Positions 12,901 through 24,900 of a DNA stretch of 64,000 nucleotides are shown piece after piece. Source of the stretch: Octopus vulgaris (Eukaryota). Positions within the stretch are counted from its first letter, which is position 1. Each line of letters opens with the position of its first letter. The stretch is taken from the NCBI GenBank assembly GCA_951406725.2, contig OX597838.1:24676001-24740000 (forward strand), written 5' to 3'. The position numbers are program-made.

Positions 12901-15900
12901 ATATATACATACACCCTTTTTCACACAATAAAGAAGGGGTCCCGAGGCATTCTTGAAATAGCAACCAAATCACCCTCAAATCTTACATCAATAACCAATA
13001 ATTCCTTGGGCTGACCAAAGCCTTGTGAGTGGATTTGGTAGTAGGCGGCAACTGAAAAGCCCATAATATATGTATGTGTCTGTCCCTGTCTTTCCTTGAC
13101 AACTGATGCTGGTGTGTTTACATCCCTGTACCAAGTACTAGACTTACAAAGAATAAGTCCTGGGGTCGATTTGCTTGACTAAAGGCAGCGCTCCAGTATG
13201 ACCACAGTTACATGACAAAACTAAATTTCCACAGTAAAGCAGTTGCTACTTCGTTGGCTAGATTGGTAGAAAGGTTTGTTGAAGTTAAATGGTGGTTTTG
13301 GGTTTCAATTCCTACCAAAGTTTAAACATTTTTTTATTAACTAAAGTTGTTTATAATTGTGGACAAGTGGCTAGAGATGGTCACAACTGGAGTGTCTAAA
13401 AGTAGCAGCCAAATTTTCCTCAAAAAAGATTGTGTGAAAAAGGGTTGCAAGGCAACCTTAACGGAGTAACCAAAAAAGTAAATTTAAATATCTTAATTTT
13501 CTCATTAAAATTGTTACTGCTTCAGTGGCCCAGTAGGTAAGGGTGTTTAGAAGTAGTAATGTAATACAGGAGTGGAAGTTTCAAATCTCTGCCAAGGAAC
13601 TTTTTTTTCTTTTAAATCTTTTGATAAAACAAAAAAAAATCTTCCTTGCAGGACTTCCTTGAGATTGAACCCTGACCAGGATATTCAATGTTGTCTGCAT
13701 AGGCTTCTACCCACGAGTCCACTGGGACCCCCCAATGGTATTAGTTAAAAATGAGATATTTAAATCTATATCAGCTGAAGATAAATAATCAAATCAACAG
13801 ACCTGTTTGGATGCCTTTGTGGAATAAGGGTAGTCAGTGGACGTAGGGATCTAATGCACAGAGGGAGGGTTTGCAGTCGAAGGGAGTTAGATATTTTAAT
13901 TTTCTTTATTTTTACCTATCTCCATAGGGAATAAAAAAAACTTCAGATTTTTATCAAGGCACTGAATGGAACACCTGTGAAGGATTGAATCTTGCTCAGG
14001 ATCTGTAATATTGCATGTGCAGGTACATACAAGACAACACTAATATTTGCTACTAATACTGAGATCTGTACCTCCAGTCAGCTTCATGCAAGTTTGTGCC
14101 TGTGGCTTCCCTGGTCACCATTCTTGATCAGGCATCAGAAAGACCCTCATAAATGAGAGTATATGTGTAAACAAGTCACTGAAAGGCTCCAGGATGGTGA
14201 GTCATCAAAAAACAGATTTGATTTTTGAAATCTATGTTCTAACACCAAAGTAGTCAGTTATAGTTAATCAGAAAATTTAATTTGGCATGAGAAATAAACT
14301 TTTAGATGTGGAACAAAATCATAATTAACTGATCCTCCTGTATTTTCTTTTAAACAAAACCCAAGAATTTTTCAGCACACCCTCATATGTATGTGTGCAC
14401 ATATATATATATCTTTGTAAAACCCCTCGTAATTCTGTACCATGTTTTCCGTTCCTTTTTCTTGTGTTTGTTGCTATACACATCCGCTAGCTTTCTTACA
14501 AAGGAGTCTAATGCTCTTAGCTTAGACATCTTTGGGGACAAACAGATTGAACCATCTCAAGTGTAATTGTTTGAAATGGTCATGACTTCTAGTACTTAAC
14601 TGAAGAAAGAAAGCCAAGAATGACCTGTCCTAATTGTTGTTTCTCTCGTCTGCCTTAAGTGTTGTCTATCTGTCCGAACGTTTTAATGCCTCTATTGCAT
14701 TTTTTATCCATTTTTCTATTCGTATATATATATATATATACACACACACACATGTATATACCTGGCTGTTTATATTAATTTTTAGTGTATGCATTAGTAT
14801 TTCGCTAAATCTATAAATTTCTGTGGTAAATATATTATATGCTGGCAAACGGAATTAGCTGATCATCAGCTGTCTGTGCAGTCACCAGTCTAGGTGCAAT
14901 CCTTTGATCGTTCATGATCTTTACCCTTTTACATTATCCTATGTATCAGTGAAGGTGCATTGATCAGTGATTAGAGTGATGGGCTCAGTTATGAAGTTTG
15001 ATGGTTTATAGAAATATTAGAAAATCCCAGTACTTAACTGTTTTTCATACAAACCAATGAGGGAGCCTCTAAGTAGTCTTAGTCTTCTGTTATAGTTCCA
15101 TTTACATCTGGGATGTTTTACAGGAATATTAAATCAATCCCAAATGAGGCTATGTTGTAAGAAGTTTGCTTCCCAACCACATGGTTCTGGGTTCAGTTCC
15201 ACTGCATGGCACCTTGGGCAGCCTTTTTTTTTTTTTTTTTGCTATAGCCTTGGACTGACCAGAGCCCTGTAAATGGAGTTGGTAGATGGAAACTTGCAAA
15301 AAATTCGTTATACCGGGGTCGATTCATTTGACTTAGAGTAAATTGTTCAAAGTGGTGCCCCAGCATGGCTGTAGTCTAATGACTGAAACAAGTAAAAGAT
15401 AACAGTTACTTTGCTGGCCATTCATTGATGTCTTCAAATAAAAAAGAAGGCAATGAGCAGTCATTGAGATTGGACCATTGCAAAGAAGGAAATACGTCTG
15501 ATATTGGAGTCAATTCACTGTCTTCTATCAATAAAACTTTAACAACTTCTTTTTGGTAAATAACATTATGGCTTTTGCTGTTTTCTCTGGAAGAATAAGC
15601 ATGCTCTTGGCCAATGTTCAGGAGGGTCGAATTAATCCTGGAGCAGTTCTTATGCCGCAGTGTATTGCTGTAGTTAGCAGTGATCTTCCAGTTGTTGGAC
15701 ATCTCTATGTTGCTGTCATCATATAGAGTCTCAACTATTGGTGTTTGAGTAAATATTGTATTCTGGGGTTGGCTAAATTCTTTTGGGGCTGATGAACTTG
15801 TTAATGGATTGTTTTTCTGATTCTCCTCTGACACAAGTTTCTTTACAGTACTTTTATTCTGTTGACTGCTAAGATTGCTCTTACCTGGGACTGAAGTCTG

Positions 15901-21900: not shown

Positions 21901-24900
21901 GAATCTGAACTCAGAACACAAGATAGACAAAATGCCGCTATGAATTTGGTCCAGTGTTCTAATGGTTCTACCAGCTTGTTGTTGCTTTTCAGTTCCCTAA
22001 TATTGAACACAATGAATCAAAATCTCTTACAAAAACAATATGAAAATCTTCAATGAAACTTAATACTTACTGTTTGAAAATGCTTTGACTTAGTACTGCG
22101 TATCTGTTGGTTTTTGAAGACAGGTTCTTCGGTGAAGCTATAGGGGTCGAAATCAGGCGGTTCTGTTGAAAGGATGGAACCTAAAAAAATTTGAGCAAAA
22201 TAATGATTCTTTTAAAAATTCATAGGTGTAGGAGTGACTGTGTGGTAAGTAGTTTGCTTACGAACCACATGGTTCTGGGTTCAGTCCCACTGCATGGCAC
22301 CTTGGGCAAGTGTCTTCTACTATAGCCTCAGGCCGACCAAAGCCTTACGAGTGGATTTGGTAGATGGAAACCGAAAGAAGCCCGTCATATATGTGTATGT
22401 GTGTGTCTGTGTTTGTTACCCCAACATTGCTTGATAACCAATGCTGGTGTGTTTGCGTCCCCATAACTTAGCAGTTCGGCAAAAGAGACCGATAGAATAA
22501 GTACTAGGCTTACAAAGAATAAGTCCTGGAGTTGATTTGCTTGACTTAAGGCGGTACTCCAGCATGGCCACAGTCAAATGATTGAAACAAGTAAAAGAGT
22601 ACAATTATTAGAATCAGGGATTTTGAACTAGAAATTGCACTGTAGATACACATATTAATTAAACTGACCCCTTTCTGCTAAAAAAAAAAAACCAGAAACT
22701 CCAAAATACCAGCCTTATACTTACATTTGAAACAATTATTAATATATTCACATAGTTGGTAGATTTGTGGAATCAGTAGAGCATCAAACAAAATACCTTG
22801 TGGCTATTTGTTCTAGCTCTTTATATTCTCACTTCAAATCCCGATGAAGTTAACACACAAGGTGTGTACAAAATGTATTCGACATTTGAGCATGAAAAAA
22901 AAACAAATCAATTTTGCATGTTTGATAAATCTTACTTAATCATCTTCAAAATACTCCCTTCTGCCATTTCAGGTAACACTTCTGGGTTGCTATGGAGCTC
23001 TGCTGTTGCTTTTCTCATAATTTCTCCTCACAACTCAAATCGCTTCCCTTTCAGAGTGGTGTTTGGCCTGGAGGAAGAGCCAGAAGTCATATGTGGCTAT
23101 GTAGGGAAGCTGTCCAATGAATAGTGTTGTTCTTGATAAGGAAAGTCAGATTACAGAGTGTGTTCAAAAAGTATCTGACTTTATTTTTTTGCTGACATCC
23201 TATGCATGCATAAACCCTCTGTTTAAATGGAATGCACTGAATCCTGTACTCATTCCCACTCTCCTGGATCGTTACATGACAGTTTTCCAAGACTATTCGC
23301 TGAACCATCTCAATTGGCTCAACAAGTGCTACATAGGTAAACATCACAAGGATGGACTAAAAACAGAAGGGGAAGAATTTTTAAAAGGGGTTCCCAAAAG
23401 AACCCCAACCAAACATTGGGGGTCAGATCACCTTGAAGGATAAGTAACCCCCAATCTTACCTTTCTCCAATCAACATGGCGGACATTAGAGTAGGTCACA
23501 TGTGTGGGACCAGGGATTGTCCTGGAAGCAAGGTCACTTGCTCAATGACCTCAAGTTGCTAGGTTTGGATGTGATAGCTGCCAGTGGGACCAGGGTTTCT
23601 GATACATGCACACTAGCTCCCATTTTTGACAACTCTGAGATCAATGTATCTCTTAGCCATCCTGGAAAGGGAAGCGGGTTGGTAGTGTTGGATAGAAAAG
23701 GCCTGGATCTTGAGGTATGGATGATTCTCCTGGACCCGGATGGTAAGGTGGTGATTTCAGACTAGTTGCTGAGTATGCCCCAACTGGGGTAAGGTAGCCA
23801 GACTTTTCCAGATGTTTGGCGGTTTTCCTTTGGAGGTCTCACTTTTCATTGCTTGTGGGCGATTGGAACGTCATCTTGGATAGGGAGGGCCAGCTGATAT
23901 GAGAGGAATTGTAATAGTTNNNNNNNNNNNNNNNNNNNNNNNNNNNNNNNNNNNNNNNNNNNNNNNNNNNNNNNNNNNNNNNNNNNNNNNNNNNNNNNNN
24001 NNNNNNNNNNNNNNNNNNNGCTTGTGACAGGTTTGTATGTGGAAGAGTCACTTGTGACAGACTTGTATCTGGAAGAGTCAACTGTGACAGGTTTGTATCT
24101 GGAAGAGTCAGCTGTGACAGGTTTGTATCTGGAAGAGTCAGCTGTGACAGGTTTGTGTCTGGAAGAGTCAACTGTGACAGGTTTGTATCTGGAAGAGTCA
24201 GCTGTGACAGATTTGTGTCTGGAAGAGTCAGCTGTGATAGTTTTGTGTCTGGAAGAGTCAGCTGTGACAGGTTTGTATCTGGAAGAGTCAGCTGTGACAG
24301 GTTCATATCTGGAAGAGTCAGCTGTGACAGGTTCATATCTGGAAGAGTCAACTGTGACAGGTTTGTATCTGGAAGAGTCATTTGTGACAGGTTTGTATCT
24401 GGAAGAGTCATTTGTGACAGGTTTGTATCTGGAAGAGTCAACTGCGACAAGTTTGTATCTGGAAGAGTTACTTGTGACTGGCATATCTCTGAAAATGCAT
24501 TTTGTGACAGGTTTATGTCTGGAAGTGTCATTTGTGACAGGCTTAGTTTTGGATCAGGCATCTGTTGGCTTGCATCGTGTACTGTTGTTTTTCCGTTTCT
24601 GATTTCTGTATTCTTATCAATTGTTTCAGCAGGTAAAGTTGGAAATAATATTTCTGAACCAGAAGATGATGCCACATCCATTGTGTTAATTCTGTTGGCA
24701 GAGATTTTAAACTGTCAAGTAAAAGAAATAAAGAAACATTTTTTTTTTCATCATTGCTTTCGAAATGATGAGGGGCGTCTTTTAACAAAAAAAACCCAAA
24801 AAAACTTTGTTGATCCTTAAATTCCAGCAATGGACTACACGTGTTACTTCTGTATCATCCTTCCATAAAATGTATTTATGGGGAGAAAAATATTGAAAAA

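What the first reader, a model, noticed from the sequence alone, without database searches (positions are those of the whole stretch)
15406..24711. Orphan multi-exon gene encoding a protein with at least 18 tandem LSQxTLPDxN repeats
Seen: three downstream exons (22180-22071, 18433-18337, 16589-15406) join in frame through canonical splice sites. An upstream exon with its own acceptor and ATG carries a 30-bp array. In this frame S-Q is kept in every unit, while neighbouring residues vary (L/M/V, T/M/I, N/K/S). Known: LSQ is the preferred ATM/ATR phosphorylation context, and SQ/TQ cluster domains mark DNA-damage and meiotic scaffolds. The rest is basic and low-complexity, with a DPYSF motif, a coiled-coil-like stretch and an acidic-aromatic C-terminus (PSFLFEDINEW). 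Inference: a fast-evolving nuclear scaffold with a copy-number-variable phospho-array. Each unit also holds an N-L-S sequon, but no signal peptide is evident. The link between the repeat exon and the next exon is hidden by the N gap.
[Added by the scan's program, not by the reader: the finding's places include an assembly gap (unread letters, written N; its length is only estimated) at 23920 to 24019. Whether the letters on both sides are continuous or in frame is not known: test that first.]
Basis: partly seen in the sequence, partly recalled or inferred. Interest (0 to 1): 0.7.

Follow-up and report, generated by a model that had tools for sequence, protein, structure and literature searches.

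The report
Octopus gene with pentapeptide-like repeat array
This is a real but uncharacterised gene found only in octopuses, whose first exon encodes about 18 copies of a ten-residue unit that resembles bacterial pentapeptide repeats; it is already listed in databases for sister species and is only mildly unusual.

Summary
The window is Octopus vulgaris. Full-length orthologues in O. sinensis (LOC118767863, 734 aa) and O. bimaculoides ("myb-like protein U", 752 aa) use the same start codon, the same LSQLTLPDTN frame and the same junctions.

The sequence is not continuous across the N gap. About 75 orthologue residues between the array and exon 2 have no match anywhere in the window, so the end of exon 1 and its donor are hidden there. 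The public O. vulgaris model (607 aa) bridges the gap by reading the array in another frame, which looks like an artefact.

"Orphan" is half right. There are four Octopus-type proteins and no relative among 1.84 billion representatives.

A beta-solenoid is my preferred reading of the array, but the fold is not settled. The ATM/ATR phospho-array idea is neither tested nor excluded. The rest of the protein is a roughly 70-residue helical segment followed by disorder. Interest is modest.

The parts
24682..24711 (-). Untranslated start of exon 1, after a candidate acceptor AG at 24713-24712. An in-frame TGA lies at 24717-24715.
   Evidence: Read. Use of the acceptor was not tested because no transcript data were available.
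24020..24681 (-). Visible coding part of exon 1: ATG at 24681-24679, a 47-residue N-terminal lead, then the array. It ends with two bases of the 18th unit at the edge of the gap.
   Evidence: Translation (P0002). tblastn of the orthologues gives 93% (O. sinensis) and 80% (O. bimaculoides) identity over 24681-24094/24043. Both orthologues have the same N-terminus.
24023..24541 (-). 30-bp coding minisatellite of 17 full units plus one partial, consensus LSQLTLPDTN. Each unit is two pentapeptides, TNLSQ and LTLPD.
   Evidence: Pfam Pentapeptide_4 scores 78.1 bits (cut-off 38) and Pentapeptide 64.1 bits (cut-off 20.2).
23920..24019 (.). Assembly gap. It hides the 3' end of exon 1 (about 75 codons in the orthologues), its donor and the start of intron 1. 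The real length must exceed the nominal 100.
   Evidence: orthologue residues about 197-271 have no match in the window. Nothing was filled in.
22071..22180 (-). Exon 2 (110 nt, phase 1 in, phase 0 out), carrying the conserved PPDFDPYSF motif.
   Evidence: 100% and 84% identity to the orthologues. The motif is identical in three species.
18337..18433 (-). Exon 3 (97 nt, phase 0 in, phase 1 out). It is a basic stretch leading into the helical segment.
   Evidence: The junctions ...HFQT|KPKT... and ...SNLT|N|LLLESQ... are present in P0003, P0005 and P0006.
15406..16589 (-). Exon 4 (393 codons plus TAA at 15408-15406).
   Evidence: 100% to the O. vulgaris record; 98% and 83% to the orthologues.
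16375..16584 (-). Predicted helical segment: residues 2-29 and 34-71 of the exon 4 product.
   Evidence: AlphaFold2 with a 3-sequence alignment gives pLDDT 58-69 here and below 50 for residues 73-393.
15889..16008 (-). A 40-residue island (NSSF...QQTSV) inside the disordered tail, 39 of 40 positions invariant across the three sequences of A1 and of A2.
15409..15546 (-). Conserved C-terminal island ending in the acidic-aromatic ...LPSFLFEDINEWPAK.
24052..24484 (-). First exon of the public O. vulgaris protein model, read in the other open frame (VTADSSRYKP). It uses an internal ATG and a GT at 24051-24050. I judge this an annotation artefact of the gap.
   Evidence: Between units, 8 of 46 differences are synonymous in this frame, against 25 of 46 in the LSQ frame.

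Best explanation
Shown: this is a real gene with four coding exons on the minus strand of Octopus vulgaris DNA. It is the orthologue of O. sinensis LOC118767863 and O. bimaculoides 'myb-like protein U'. Exon 1 starts at ATG 24681 and reads the 30-bp array as LSQLTLPDTN. The N gap removes the last ~75 codons of exon 1 and its donor. No relative is detectable outside Octopus-type sequences.

Inferred: each 10-residue unit is two pentapeptide repeats, TNLSQ and LTLPD. The ~36 consecutive pentapeptides most likely stack, four per turn, into a beta-solenoid rod of about nine turns. The leucines and the T/L/M/V/I positions would face inward. The S-Q pairs would be exposed in two ladders on opposite edges.

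The rod sits at the N-terminus of a mildly basic, otherwise largely disordered protein. That protein has a ~70-residue helical segment and a few strongly conserved short islands (PPDFDPYSF, a 40-residue block, and the C-terminal ...FLFEDINEW).

My reading is therefore an intracellular adaptor. A rigid repeated surface, whose length changes by unequal exchange of units, would bind a partner, and the conserved islands would act as short docking motifs. The array probably arose within the lineage by minisatellite expansion and resembles bacterial pentapeptide-repeat proteins by convergence. The exposed S-Q pairs could be phosphorylated, but nothing here shows it.
For: Gene and frame:
- P0003 (O. 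vulgaris) is 100% identical to exon 4.
- P0005 and P0006 carry the same N-terminus, the same frame of the array and the same exon junctions.
- Differences between units are synonymous in 25 of 46 cases in the LSQ frame, where 26 of 90 possible changes are synonymous. In the other open minus-strand frame the figure is 8 of 46.
- Counting each distinct variant once gives 11 of 24 against 4 of 24. For units 4-17 it is 8 of 14 against 2 of 14.

Pentapeptide character:
- Pfam Pentapeptide_4 gives E 5.3e-22 and 78.1 bits (cut-off 38). Pentapeptide gives E 8.3e-18 and 64.1 bits (cut-off 20.2).
- Both families also pass in the two orthologues.
- None of the three other open frames of the array hits them.
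- All 11 PDB sequences matched at E<=0.001 are pentapeptide-repeat proteins, the best being 4yfo at 3.9e-18.
- In register, 34 of 35 pentapeptides have L/F at the centre, and 133 of 175 positions fit the 2019 consensus. The other four registers fit at 2-47% (consensus from PMC8145042, passages).
- AlphaFold2 on the single sequence places one short strand every 10 residues through the array, with block pLDDT 56-82 (one search is the tail; this result is).

Tail: helices at residues 2-29 and 34-71, and the rest below pLDDT 50. Conserved islands are seen.

Restriction to Octopus: 1 hit (its own cluster) among 1,835,955,588 representatives.
Against: - The fold is not settled. Foldseek of the model against the PDB gave 0 of 428 listed matches at E<=0.001. 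The top rows are 20-residue leucine-rich-repeat proteins (best TM 0.42), not pentapeptide-repeat structures.
- The model's overall pLDDT is only 61. The ESM Atlas's own model of the O. bimaculoides protein has pTM 0.27 and pLDDT 0.44.
- The second pentapeptide (LTLPD) fits only 3 of 5 consensus positions. T at i-1 and P at i+1 lie outside it.
- Near-identical tandem units inflate profile scores.
- In known pentapeptide proteins the exposed i+1 and i+2 positions are the variable ones (recalled). Here S-Q is the best-kept pair, which fits a modification or binding site as well as, or better than, a purely structural role.
- Conservation within the array is confounded by recent unit duplication: 4 of 17 units are identical at the DNA level.
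- No expression, localisation or partner data exist. 'Adaptor' is inference from architecture only.
Confidence: 0.55

Rival explanations
1. The array is a disordered SQ cluster that ATM/ATR-type kinases phosphorylate at many sites, making the protein a DNA-damage or meiotic scaffold. This is not exclusive of a folded array.
For: - There are 19 S-Q in 220 residues, 18 of them spaced exactly 10 apart, and 15 of those 18 in L-S-Q context.
- The Gln codon varies silently (CAA in 6 units, CAG in 11) with no replacement in 17 full units.
- S-Q is kept in 14 of 15 and 16 of 17 units in the orthologues.
- The formal cluster criterion of at least 3 S/T-Q in 100 residues is met (PMC3564818, passages).
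Against: - The criterion is unspecific: more than 25% of yeast proteins meet it.
- The leucines are kept as strictly as S-Q, with a five-residue period unusual for a disordered region.
- Pfam and PDB sequence matches point to a folded repeat.
- There is no homology to any checkpoint or meiotic protein.
- No nuclear signal or phosphorylation was tested.
Confidence: 0.2
2. The array is a tolerated coding minisatellite with no specific role. It would be a spacer that drifts in copy number, and any function of the gene would lie in the conserved islands downstream.
For: - Copy number differs between close species (18, 15 and 17 units).
- Central units are near-identical at the DNA level while edge units are degenerate. 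This is the pattern expected from unequal exchange.
- The strongest cross-species conservation is in exon 4.
Against: - There is an excess of silent differences in the coding frame.
- The frame and the array are retained in three species. A review passage puts the O. vulgaris / O. bimaculoides split at 13.3-33.5 million years (PMC13282606, passages).
Confidence: 0.2
3. The public O. vulgaris model is right: the array is read as VTADSSRYKP from an internal ATG, or it is not coding at all.
For: That frame is open across the array. A GT at 24051-24050 gives the phase that exon 2 needs. The model exists in a public record.
Against: - Two orthologue models read the LSQ frame from the upstream ATG.
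- Silent changes in the VTADSSRYKP frame are 8 of 46, or 4 of 24 distinct variants.
- The model skips the ~75 residues that both orthologues carry.
Confidence: 0.03
4. It is a secreted or surface glycoprotein that uses the N-L-S sequon present in most units.
For: There are 14 N-x-S/T sequons in the 220 visible residues of exon 1.
Against: By reading, the N-terminus (MDVASSSGSEILFPTLPAETIDKN...) is polar and acidic with no hydrophobic core. No signal-peptide predictor was available. No transmembrane-like stretch is seen in the orthologues (by reading).
Confidence: 0.02

Closest known systems
O. sinensis LOC118767863 (uncharacterized protein, 734 aa) and O. bimaculoides 'myb-like protein U' (752 aa)
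   Same: These are orthologues. They share the start, the array frame, the exon junctions and the C-terminus, with 98% and 83% identity over exon 4.
   Different: They have 15 and 17 units against 18 in the window. They also contain the ~75 residues hidden here by the gap. The 'myb-like' name is not backed by any Myb domain (Pfam).
Pentapeptide-repeat proteins (Pfam PF00805/PF13599; e.g. Np275-Np276 2j8k, Rfr23 2o6w, designed 'beta1' 4yfo)
   Same: Both have tandem five-residue repeats with a central Leu and a small or hydrophobic i-2 residue. The window has 35 contiguous repeats against the 8 required. Pfam scores are above the cut-offs, and only such proteins are hit in the PDB by sequence.
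   Different: The unit here is a strict decapeptide encoded by a 30-bp minisatellite in an animal gene. Every second pentapeptide carries T at i-1 and P at i+1. The exposed S-Q is the best-kept pair. The quadrilateral helix is not confirmed. Common descent is unlikely, because the array is absent outside Octopus-type sequences.
SQ/TQ cluster domains of ATM/ATR (Tel1/Mec1) substrates
   Same: The S-Q density is far above the defining threshold.
   Different: Known clusters are irregular and usually disordered (PMC10942620, abstract in the listing). This one is strictly periodic and hydrophobic at 4 of every 10 positions. No phosphorylation evidence exists.
Short (20-residue) leucine-rich repeats of the YopM / SspH / IpaH type
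   Same: They were the top, non-significant Foldseek rows for the model. Two units make 20 residues with regularly spaced leucines.
   Different: There was no LRR family in Pfam at E<=1. The Asn sits one position off the LxxLxLxxNxL pattern (pattern recalled; offset read). The best TM-score is 0.42.

Membership tests
Pentapeptide-repeat proteins | At least eight contiguous pentapeptides fitting the consensus (PMC8145042, abstract and passages) | tested here: met
   There are 35 contiguous pentapeptides, with centre L/F in 34 of 35 and 133 of 175 positions within the 2019 consensus. Pfam scores are 78.1 and 64.1 bits against cut-offs of 38 and 20.2.
Pentapeptide-repeat proteins | Right-handed quadrilateral beta-helix, four repeats per coil | tested here: inconclusive
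   The AlphaFold2 single-sequence model shows one strand per 10 residues at pLDDT 56-82. Foldseek found no pentapeptide-repeat structure and nothing at E<=0.001 (0 of 428 matches).
Pentapeptide-repeat proteins | Common descent with other members | not testable with these tools
   Similarity is limited to the repeat pattern. The array was found only in Octopus-type proteins, so convergence is more likely.
SQ/TQ cluster domain | At least 3 S/T-Q within 100 residues (stricter version: within 50) | tested here: met
   There are 19 S-Q within residues 38-220 of the exon 1 product. The definition comes from PMC3564818, passages.
SQ/TQ cluster domain | Phosphorylation by ATM/ATR-type kinases | not testable with these tools
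   No phosphoproteome or assay was available.
Myb-like proteins (the name carried by the O. bimaculoides record) | Myb/SANT DNA-binding domain | tested here: not met
   Pfam on P0005, P0006 and P0003 at E<=0.1 found no Myb family. Exons 2-4 have no family at E<=1.
Leucine-rich repeat proteins | LRR profile match (LxxLxLxxNxL core) | tested here: not met
   There was no LRR family at E<=1. The Foldseek LRR rows are not significant.
Orphan (taxonomically restricted) gene | No detectable homologue outside a narrow lineage | tested here: met
   For exon 4, a profile search of 1.84 billion representatives found only its own cluster. Word-seeded searches found 4 proteins in all, 3 named Octopus species and 1 unnamed. 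For exon 1, 0 of 23 candidates passed. Cephalopod genomes without annotated proteins could not be searched.

The most novel reading that the evidence does not exclude
An animal lineage built a pentapeptide-repeat-type beta-solenoid from scratch by expanding a 30-bp coding minisatellite. The resulting rod displays two ladders of about nine L-S-Q sites each, so its surface charge could be switched by ATM/ATR-type phosphorylation. That would make a folded, length-variable phospho-switch rather than the usual disordered SQ cluster.
Probability: 0.1. Interest if true: 0.6.

Novelty: new member of a known kind. Interest (0 to 1): 0.3.

Why it matters
First, the result corrects a public gene model. 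The O. vulgaris record reads the array in the wrong frame because of an assembly gap.

Second, it gives a clean example of a lineage-restricted animal gene whose repeat, born from a minisatellite, converges on the pentapeptide-repeat pattern otherwise typical of bacteria. If the array folds, it would be a natural case of de novo solenoid birth with species-level changes in length.

The DNA-damage reading remains an open and testable idea, but it is not supported beyond motif counting.

Tried and rejected
- ESM Atlas look-alikes for exon 4 and for residues 215-752 of the O. bimaculoides orthologue gave no usable hit. The structural rows all had TM <= 0.26.
- The profile search of 1.84 billion representatives with the exon 4 alignment found only its own cluster.
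- The word-seeded search with the exon 1 product (lengths 121-385) passed 0 of 23 candidates.
- Pfam on exons 2, 3 and 4 found nothing at E<=1.
- Foldseek of the array model against the PDB found nothing significant.
- Complex prediction on two copies of the helical segment (orthologue residues 312-420) returned 'no answer', score 0.00 against a mark of 0.32. This is neither for nor against dimerisation.
- A crude heptad count of my own gave no clear coiled-coil register in the main helices, so 'coiled coil' stays as 'helical segment'.
- Literature: 'LOC118767863' gave 0 papers. 'myb-like protein U' plus 'octopus' gave 0 papers.
- Short-motif guesses (clathrin box, LIR, ABBA, PP2A-B56, PIP box) for the conserved islands were made by eye only. 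None fitted cleanly, and all were dropped.
- ORFs in intron 2 (19160-19825, minus strand) looked transposase-like to me, but Pfam gave no match at E<=0.01.
- The genome-contig collection holds only bacteria and archaea, so it was not used.

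
Full report
WHAT IS THERE

The window is eukaryotic DNA with 33-43% G+C. The product of the last exon is 100% identical to a public protein named 'Hypothetical predicted protein [Octopus vulgaris]' (P0003, 607 aa), so the window is O. vulgaris. Nothing in it looked human.

Tandem Repeats Finder reports one array in the finding: 24023-24541, period 30, 17.3 copies, 88% matches, no indels, score 721. On the minus strand, from ATG 24681, the frame gives a 47-residue lead and then 17 full decapeptide units plus a partial 18th. An in-frame TGA lies at 24717-24715, and a candidate acceptor AG at 24713-24712. Use of that acceptor could not be tested.

THE THREE DOWNSTREAM EXONS

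- 22180-22071: 110 nt, AG at 22182-22181, GT at 22070-22069, phase 1 in and phase 0 out.
- 18433-18337: 97 nt, AG at 18435-18434, GT at 18336-18335.
- 16589-15406: AG at 16591-16590, TAA at 15408-15406.

These were read.

I searched this spliced model exon by exon and did not join the exons. P0001 is exon 4 and P0002 is the visible part of exon 1. Exons 2 and 3 went only to Pfam. Where a full-length protein was needed, I used public orthologue records as returned.

ORTHOLOGUES SETTLE THE FRAME

A search for longer relatives of exon 4 found two proteins. One is O. sinensis 'uncharacterized protein LOC118767863' (P0005, 734 aa, 98% identity). The other is O. bimaculoides 'myb-like protein U' (P0006, 752 aa, 83%).

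The near-length search had found P0003 and an unnamed 401-residue protein at 74% identity (P0004).

P0005 and P0006 begin with the same MDVASSSGSE... They read the array as LSQLTLPDTN and cross the same junctions...HFQT|KPKT... and ...SNLT|N|LLLESQ.... tblastn places them on 24681 down to the array, 22181-22071, 18433 onward and 16590-15409.

The DNA itself favours the same frame.
- Differences between units are silent in 25 of 46 cases, where 26 of 90 possible changes are silent. The other open minus-strand frame has 8 of 46.
- These cells are not independent. Counting each distinct variant once gives 11 of 24 (one-sided binomial p 0.058) against 4 of 24. For units 4-17 it is 8 of 14 (p 0.025) against 2 of 14.

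THE GAP

The letters on the two sides of 23920-24019 are not continuous. Orthologue residues about 197-271, which lie between the last unit and exon 2, match nothing in the window, even with a permissive tblastn.

The visible array ends in units that correspond to the last two degenerate units of the orthologues. The array itself therefore seems complete. What the gap hides is the non-repeat end of exon 1 (about 75 codons in the orthologues), the donor and the start of intron 1. The true length must exceed the nominal 100 bases.

The open frame that runs through the Ns to a stop at 23839 has no counterpart in the orthologues. I filled nothing in and did not consult other copies of this genome.

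A PUBLIC MODEL THAT LOOKS WRONG

P0003 begins at an internal ATG (24484) and reads the array as VTADSSRYKP. It leaves the array at a GT at 24051-24050, which is phase 1 in that frame but phase 0 in the LSQ frame. With the true donor hidden, this was a way to reach exon 2 in frame.

The annotation pipeline described for the O. vulgaris reference combines transcripts, protein alignments and ab initio calls (PMC10700109, passages). I did not establish that P0003 comes from that assembly.

HOW WIDELY THE GENE OCCURS

A profile of exon 4 (3 sequences) was run against 1,835,955,588 representatives and found only its own cluster. The exon 1 product, searched against proteins of 121-385 residues, gave 0 hits from 23 candidates.

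'Orphan' is therefore right in the sense of lineage-restricted and wrong in the sense of unique. Unit number differs: 18 in the window, 15 in O. sinensis and 17 in O. bimaculoides. Assembly collapse could affect any of these counts.

The two species pairs are close. A review passage puts the O. vulgaris / O. bimaculoides split at 13.3-33.5 million years (PMC13282606). Eighty-three per cent identity over that span suggests fairly fast change, but I had no genome-wide baseline.

WHAT THE ARRAY IS

- Pfam Pentapeptide_4 gives E 5.3e-22 and 78.1 bits against a cut-off of 38. Pentapeptide gives 8.3e-18 and 64.1 bits against 20.2.
- Both families also pass in the orthologues.
- None of the three other open frames of the same DNA gives such a hit.
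- All 11 PDB sequences matched at E<=0.001 are pentapeptide-repeat proteins: designed 'beta1' variants, Np275-Np276, All3740 and Rfr23.

In register, each unit is TNLSQ plus LTLPD. The centre is L/F in 34 of 35 pentapeptides, and 133 of 175 positions fall within the 2019 consensus. The other four registers fit at 2-47% (consensus from PMC8145042, passages). TNLSQ fits 5 of 5 positions. LTLPD fits 3 of 5, with T at i-1 and P at i+1 outside the consensus.

The family is defined by at least eight contiguous repeats and a right-handed four-sided beta-helix (PMC8145042, abstract). The first feature is met. The second is open.
- AlphaFold2 on the single sequence puts one short strand every 10 residues, with block pLDDT 56-82 in the array and below 50 before residue 72.
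- Foldseek against the PDB found 0 of 428 listed matches at E<=0.001. Its top rows are 20-residue leucine-rich repeats with TM at most 0.42.
- The ESM Atlas's own model of P0006 is poor, with pTM 0.27 and pLDDT 0.44.

THE REST OF THE PROTEIN

With a three-sequence alignment, AlphaFold2 gives helices at residues 2-29 and 34-71 of exon 4 (pLDDT 58-69) and below 50 for residues 73-393.

The non-repeat part of P0005 is rich in S, N, K and Q. It has 62 K+R against 47 D+E, so it is mildly basic.

Conservation is patchy. PPDFDPYSF is identical in three species. A 40-residue block is invariant at 39 of 40 positions in the three sequences aligned. The last ~46 residues, ending ...LPSFLFEDINEWPAK, are nearly invariant.

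No Pfam family matches exons 2-4, and no Myb domain is present. The 'myb-like' name therefore has no domain basis.

HOW IT MOST LIKELY WORKS

Shown: the gene, its frame, its restriction to Octopus, and the pentapeptide-type sequence pattern.

Inferred: the ~36 pentapeptides stack four per turn into a rod of about nine turns. The leucines and the T/L/M/V/I positions would face inward, and S-Q would be exposed on two opposite edges. The disordered tail would carry short docking motifs. This points to an intracellular adaptor whose rigid repeated surface binds a partner.

I put this at about 0.55. Most of the doubt is about the fold and the 'adaptor' role, not about the gene.

S-Q sits at positions that are normally the variable, exposed ones in such proteins (recalled). 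The Gln codon also varies silently (CAA in 6 units, CAG in 11) without any replacement. However, the cluster criterion is unspecific, and conservation within an array is confounded by recent duplication: 4 of 17 units are identical in DNA.

A neutral spacer, the public model's frame, and a secreted glycoprotein are weaker rivals. They are scored in their own sections.

WHAT STAYED UNCHECKED

- No transcript data, cephalopod genome DNA or signal-peptide or NLS predictor was available.
- The genome collection holds only bacteria and archaea and was not used.
- Supplements of the octopus genome papers were not opened. They may list this gene's expression.

VERDICT

The gene is already in databases for sister species as an uncharacterised protein, with automatic pentapeptide-repeat flags. 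Nothing is in print under its identifiers. It is a new member of a known kind, of modest interest.

Noticed in passing
window 5839-12346 (+): Ribosomal protein L6 gene. Three ORF pieces match Ribosomal_L6e_N (E 1.1e-06) and Ribosomal_L6e (E 2.1e-17 and 3.9e-13). It converges tail to tail on the repeat gene, about 3 kb from the latter's stop codon.
   Followed up: partly
window 8746-9096 (-): A piggyBac-type transposase fragment (DDE_Tnp_1_7, E 2.4e-20), lying between the L6 exon pieces.
   Followed up: partly
window 2882-2964 (+): A C/D-box snoRNA match to Rfam snoR14, just above threshold at 41.4 bits against a gathering score of 40. The host gene was not examined.
   Followed up: no
window 22215-22606 and more than 20 other places (e.g. 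48145-48558, 26977-27333, 17673-17977, 15150-15408): A SINE-like family of about 390 bp is scattered through the window at 65-89% identity. Copies lie in introns 1, 2 and 3 of the repeat gene. One hit (15354-15408) runs up to and over the stop codon, so the 3' untranslated region starts inside a repeat copy.
   Followed up: partly
window 25065-25211: A 51-nt inverted repeat with 90% complementary arms 45 nt apart. It resembles a miniature inverted-repeat element and lies about 350 bp upstream of exon 1.
   Followed up: no
window 24052-24484 (-): The public O. vulgaris protein record for this gene reads the array in the wrong frame and lacks the true N-terminus. The record probably needs correction once the gap is closed.
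   Followed up: yes
window 41071-41491 and 42060-42469: A 184-bp tandem repeat (2.3 copies, 95% matches) and a long GA-rich microsatellite or 24-bp array. The latter produces long open S/L-rich frames that are surely not genes.
   Followed up: no
window 19160-19825 (-), in intron 2: Several short ORFs looked to me like a decayed Tc1/mariner-type transposase, but Pfam gave no match at E<=0.01. The resemblance is recalled, not shown.
   Followed up: partly
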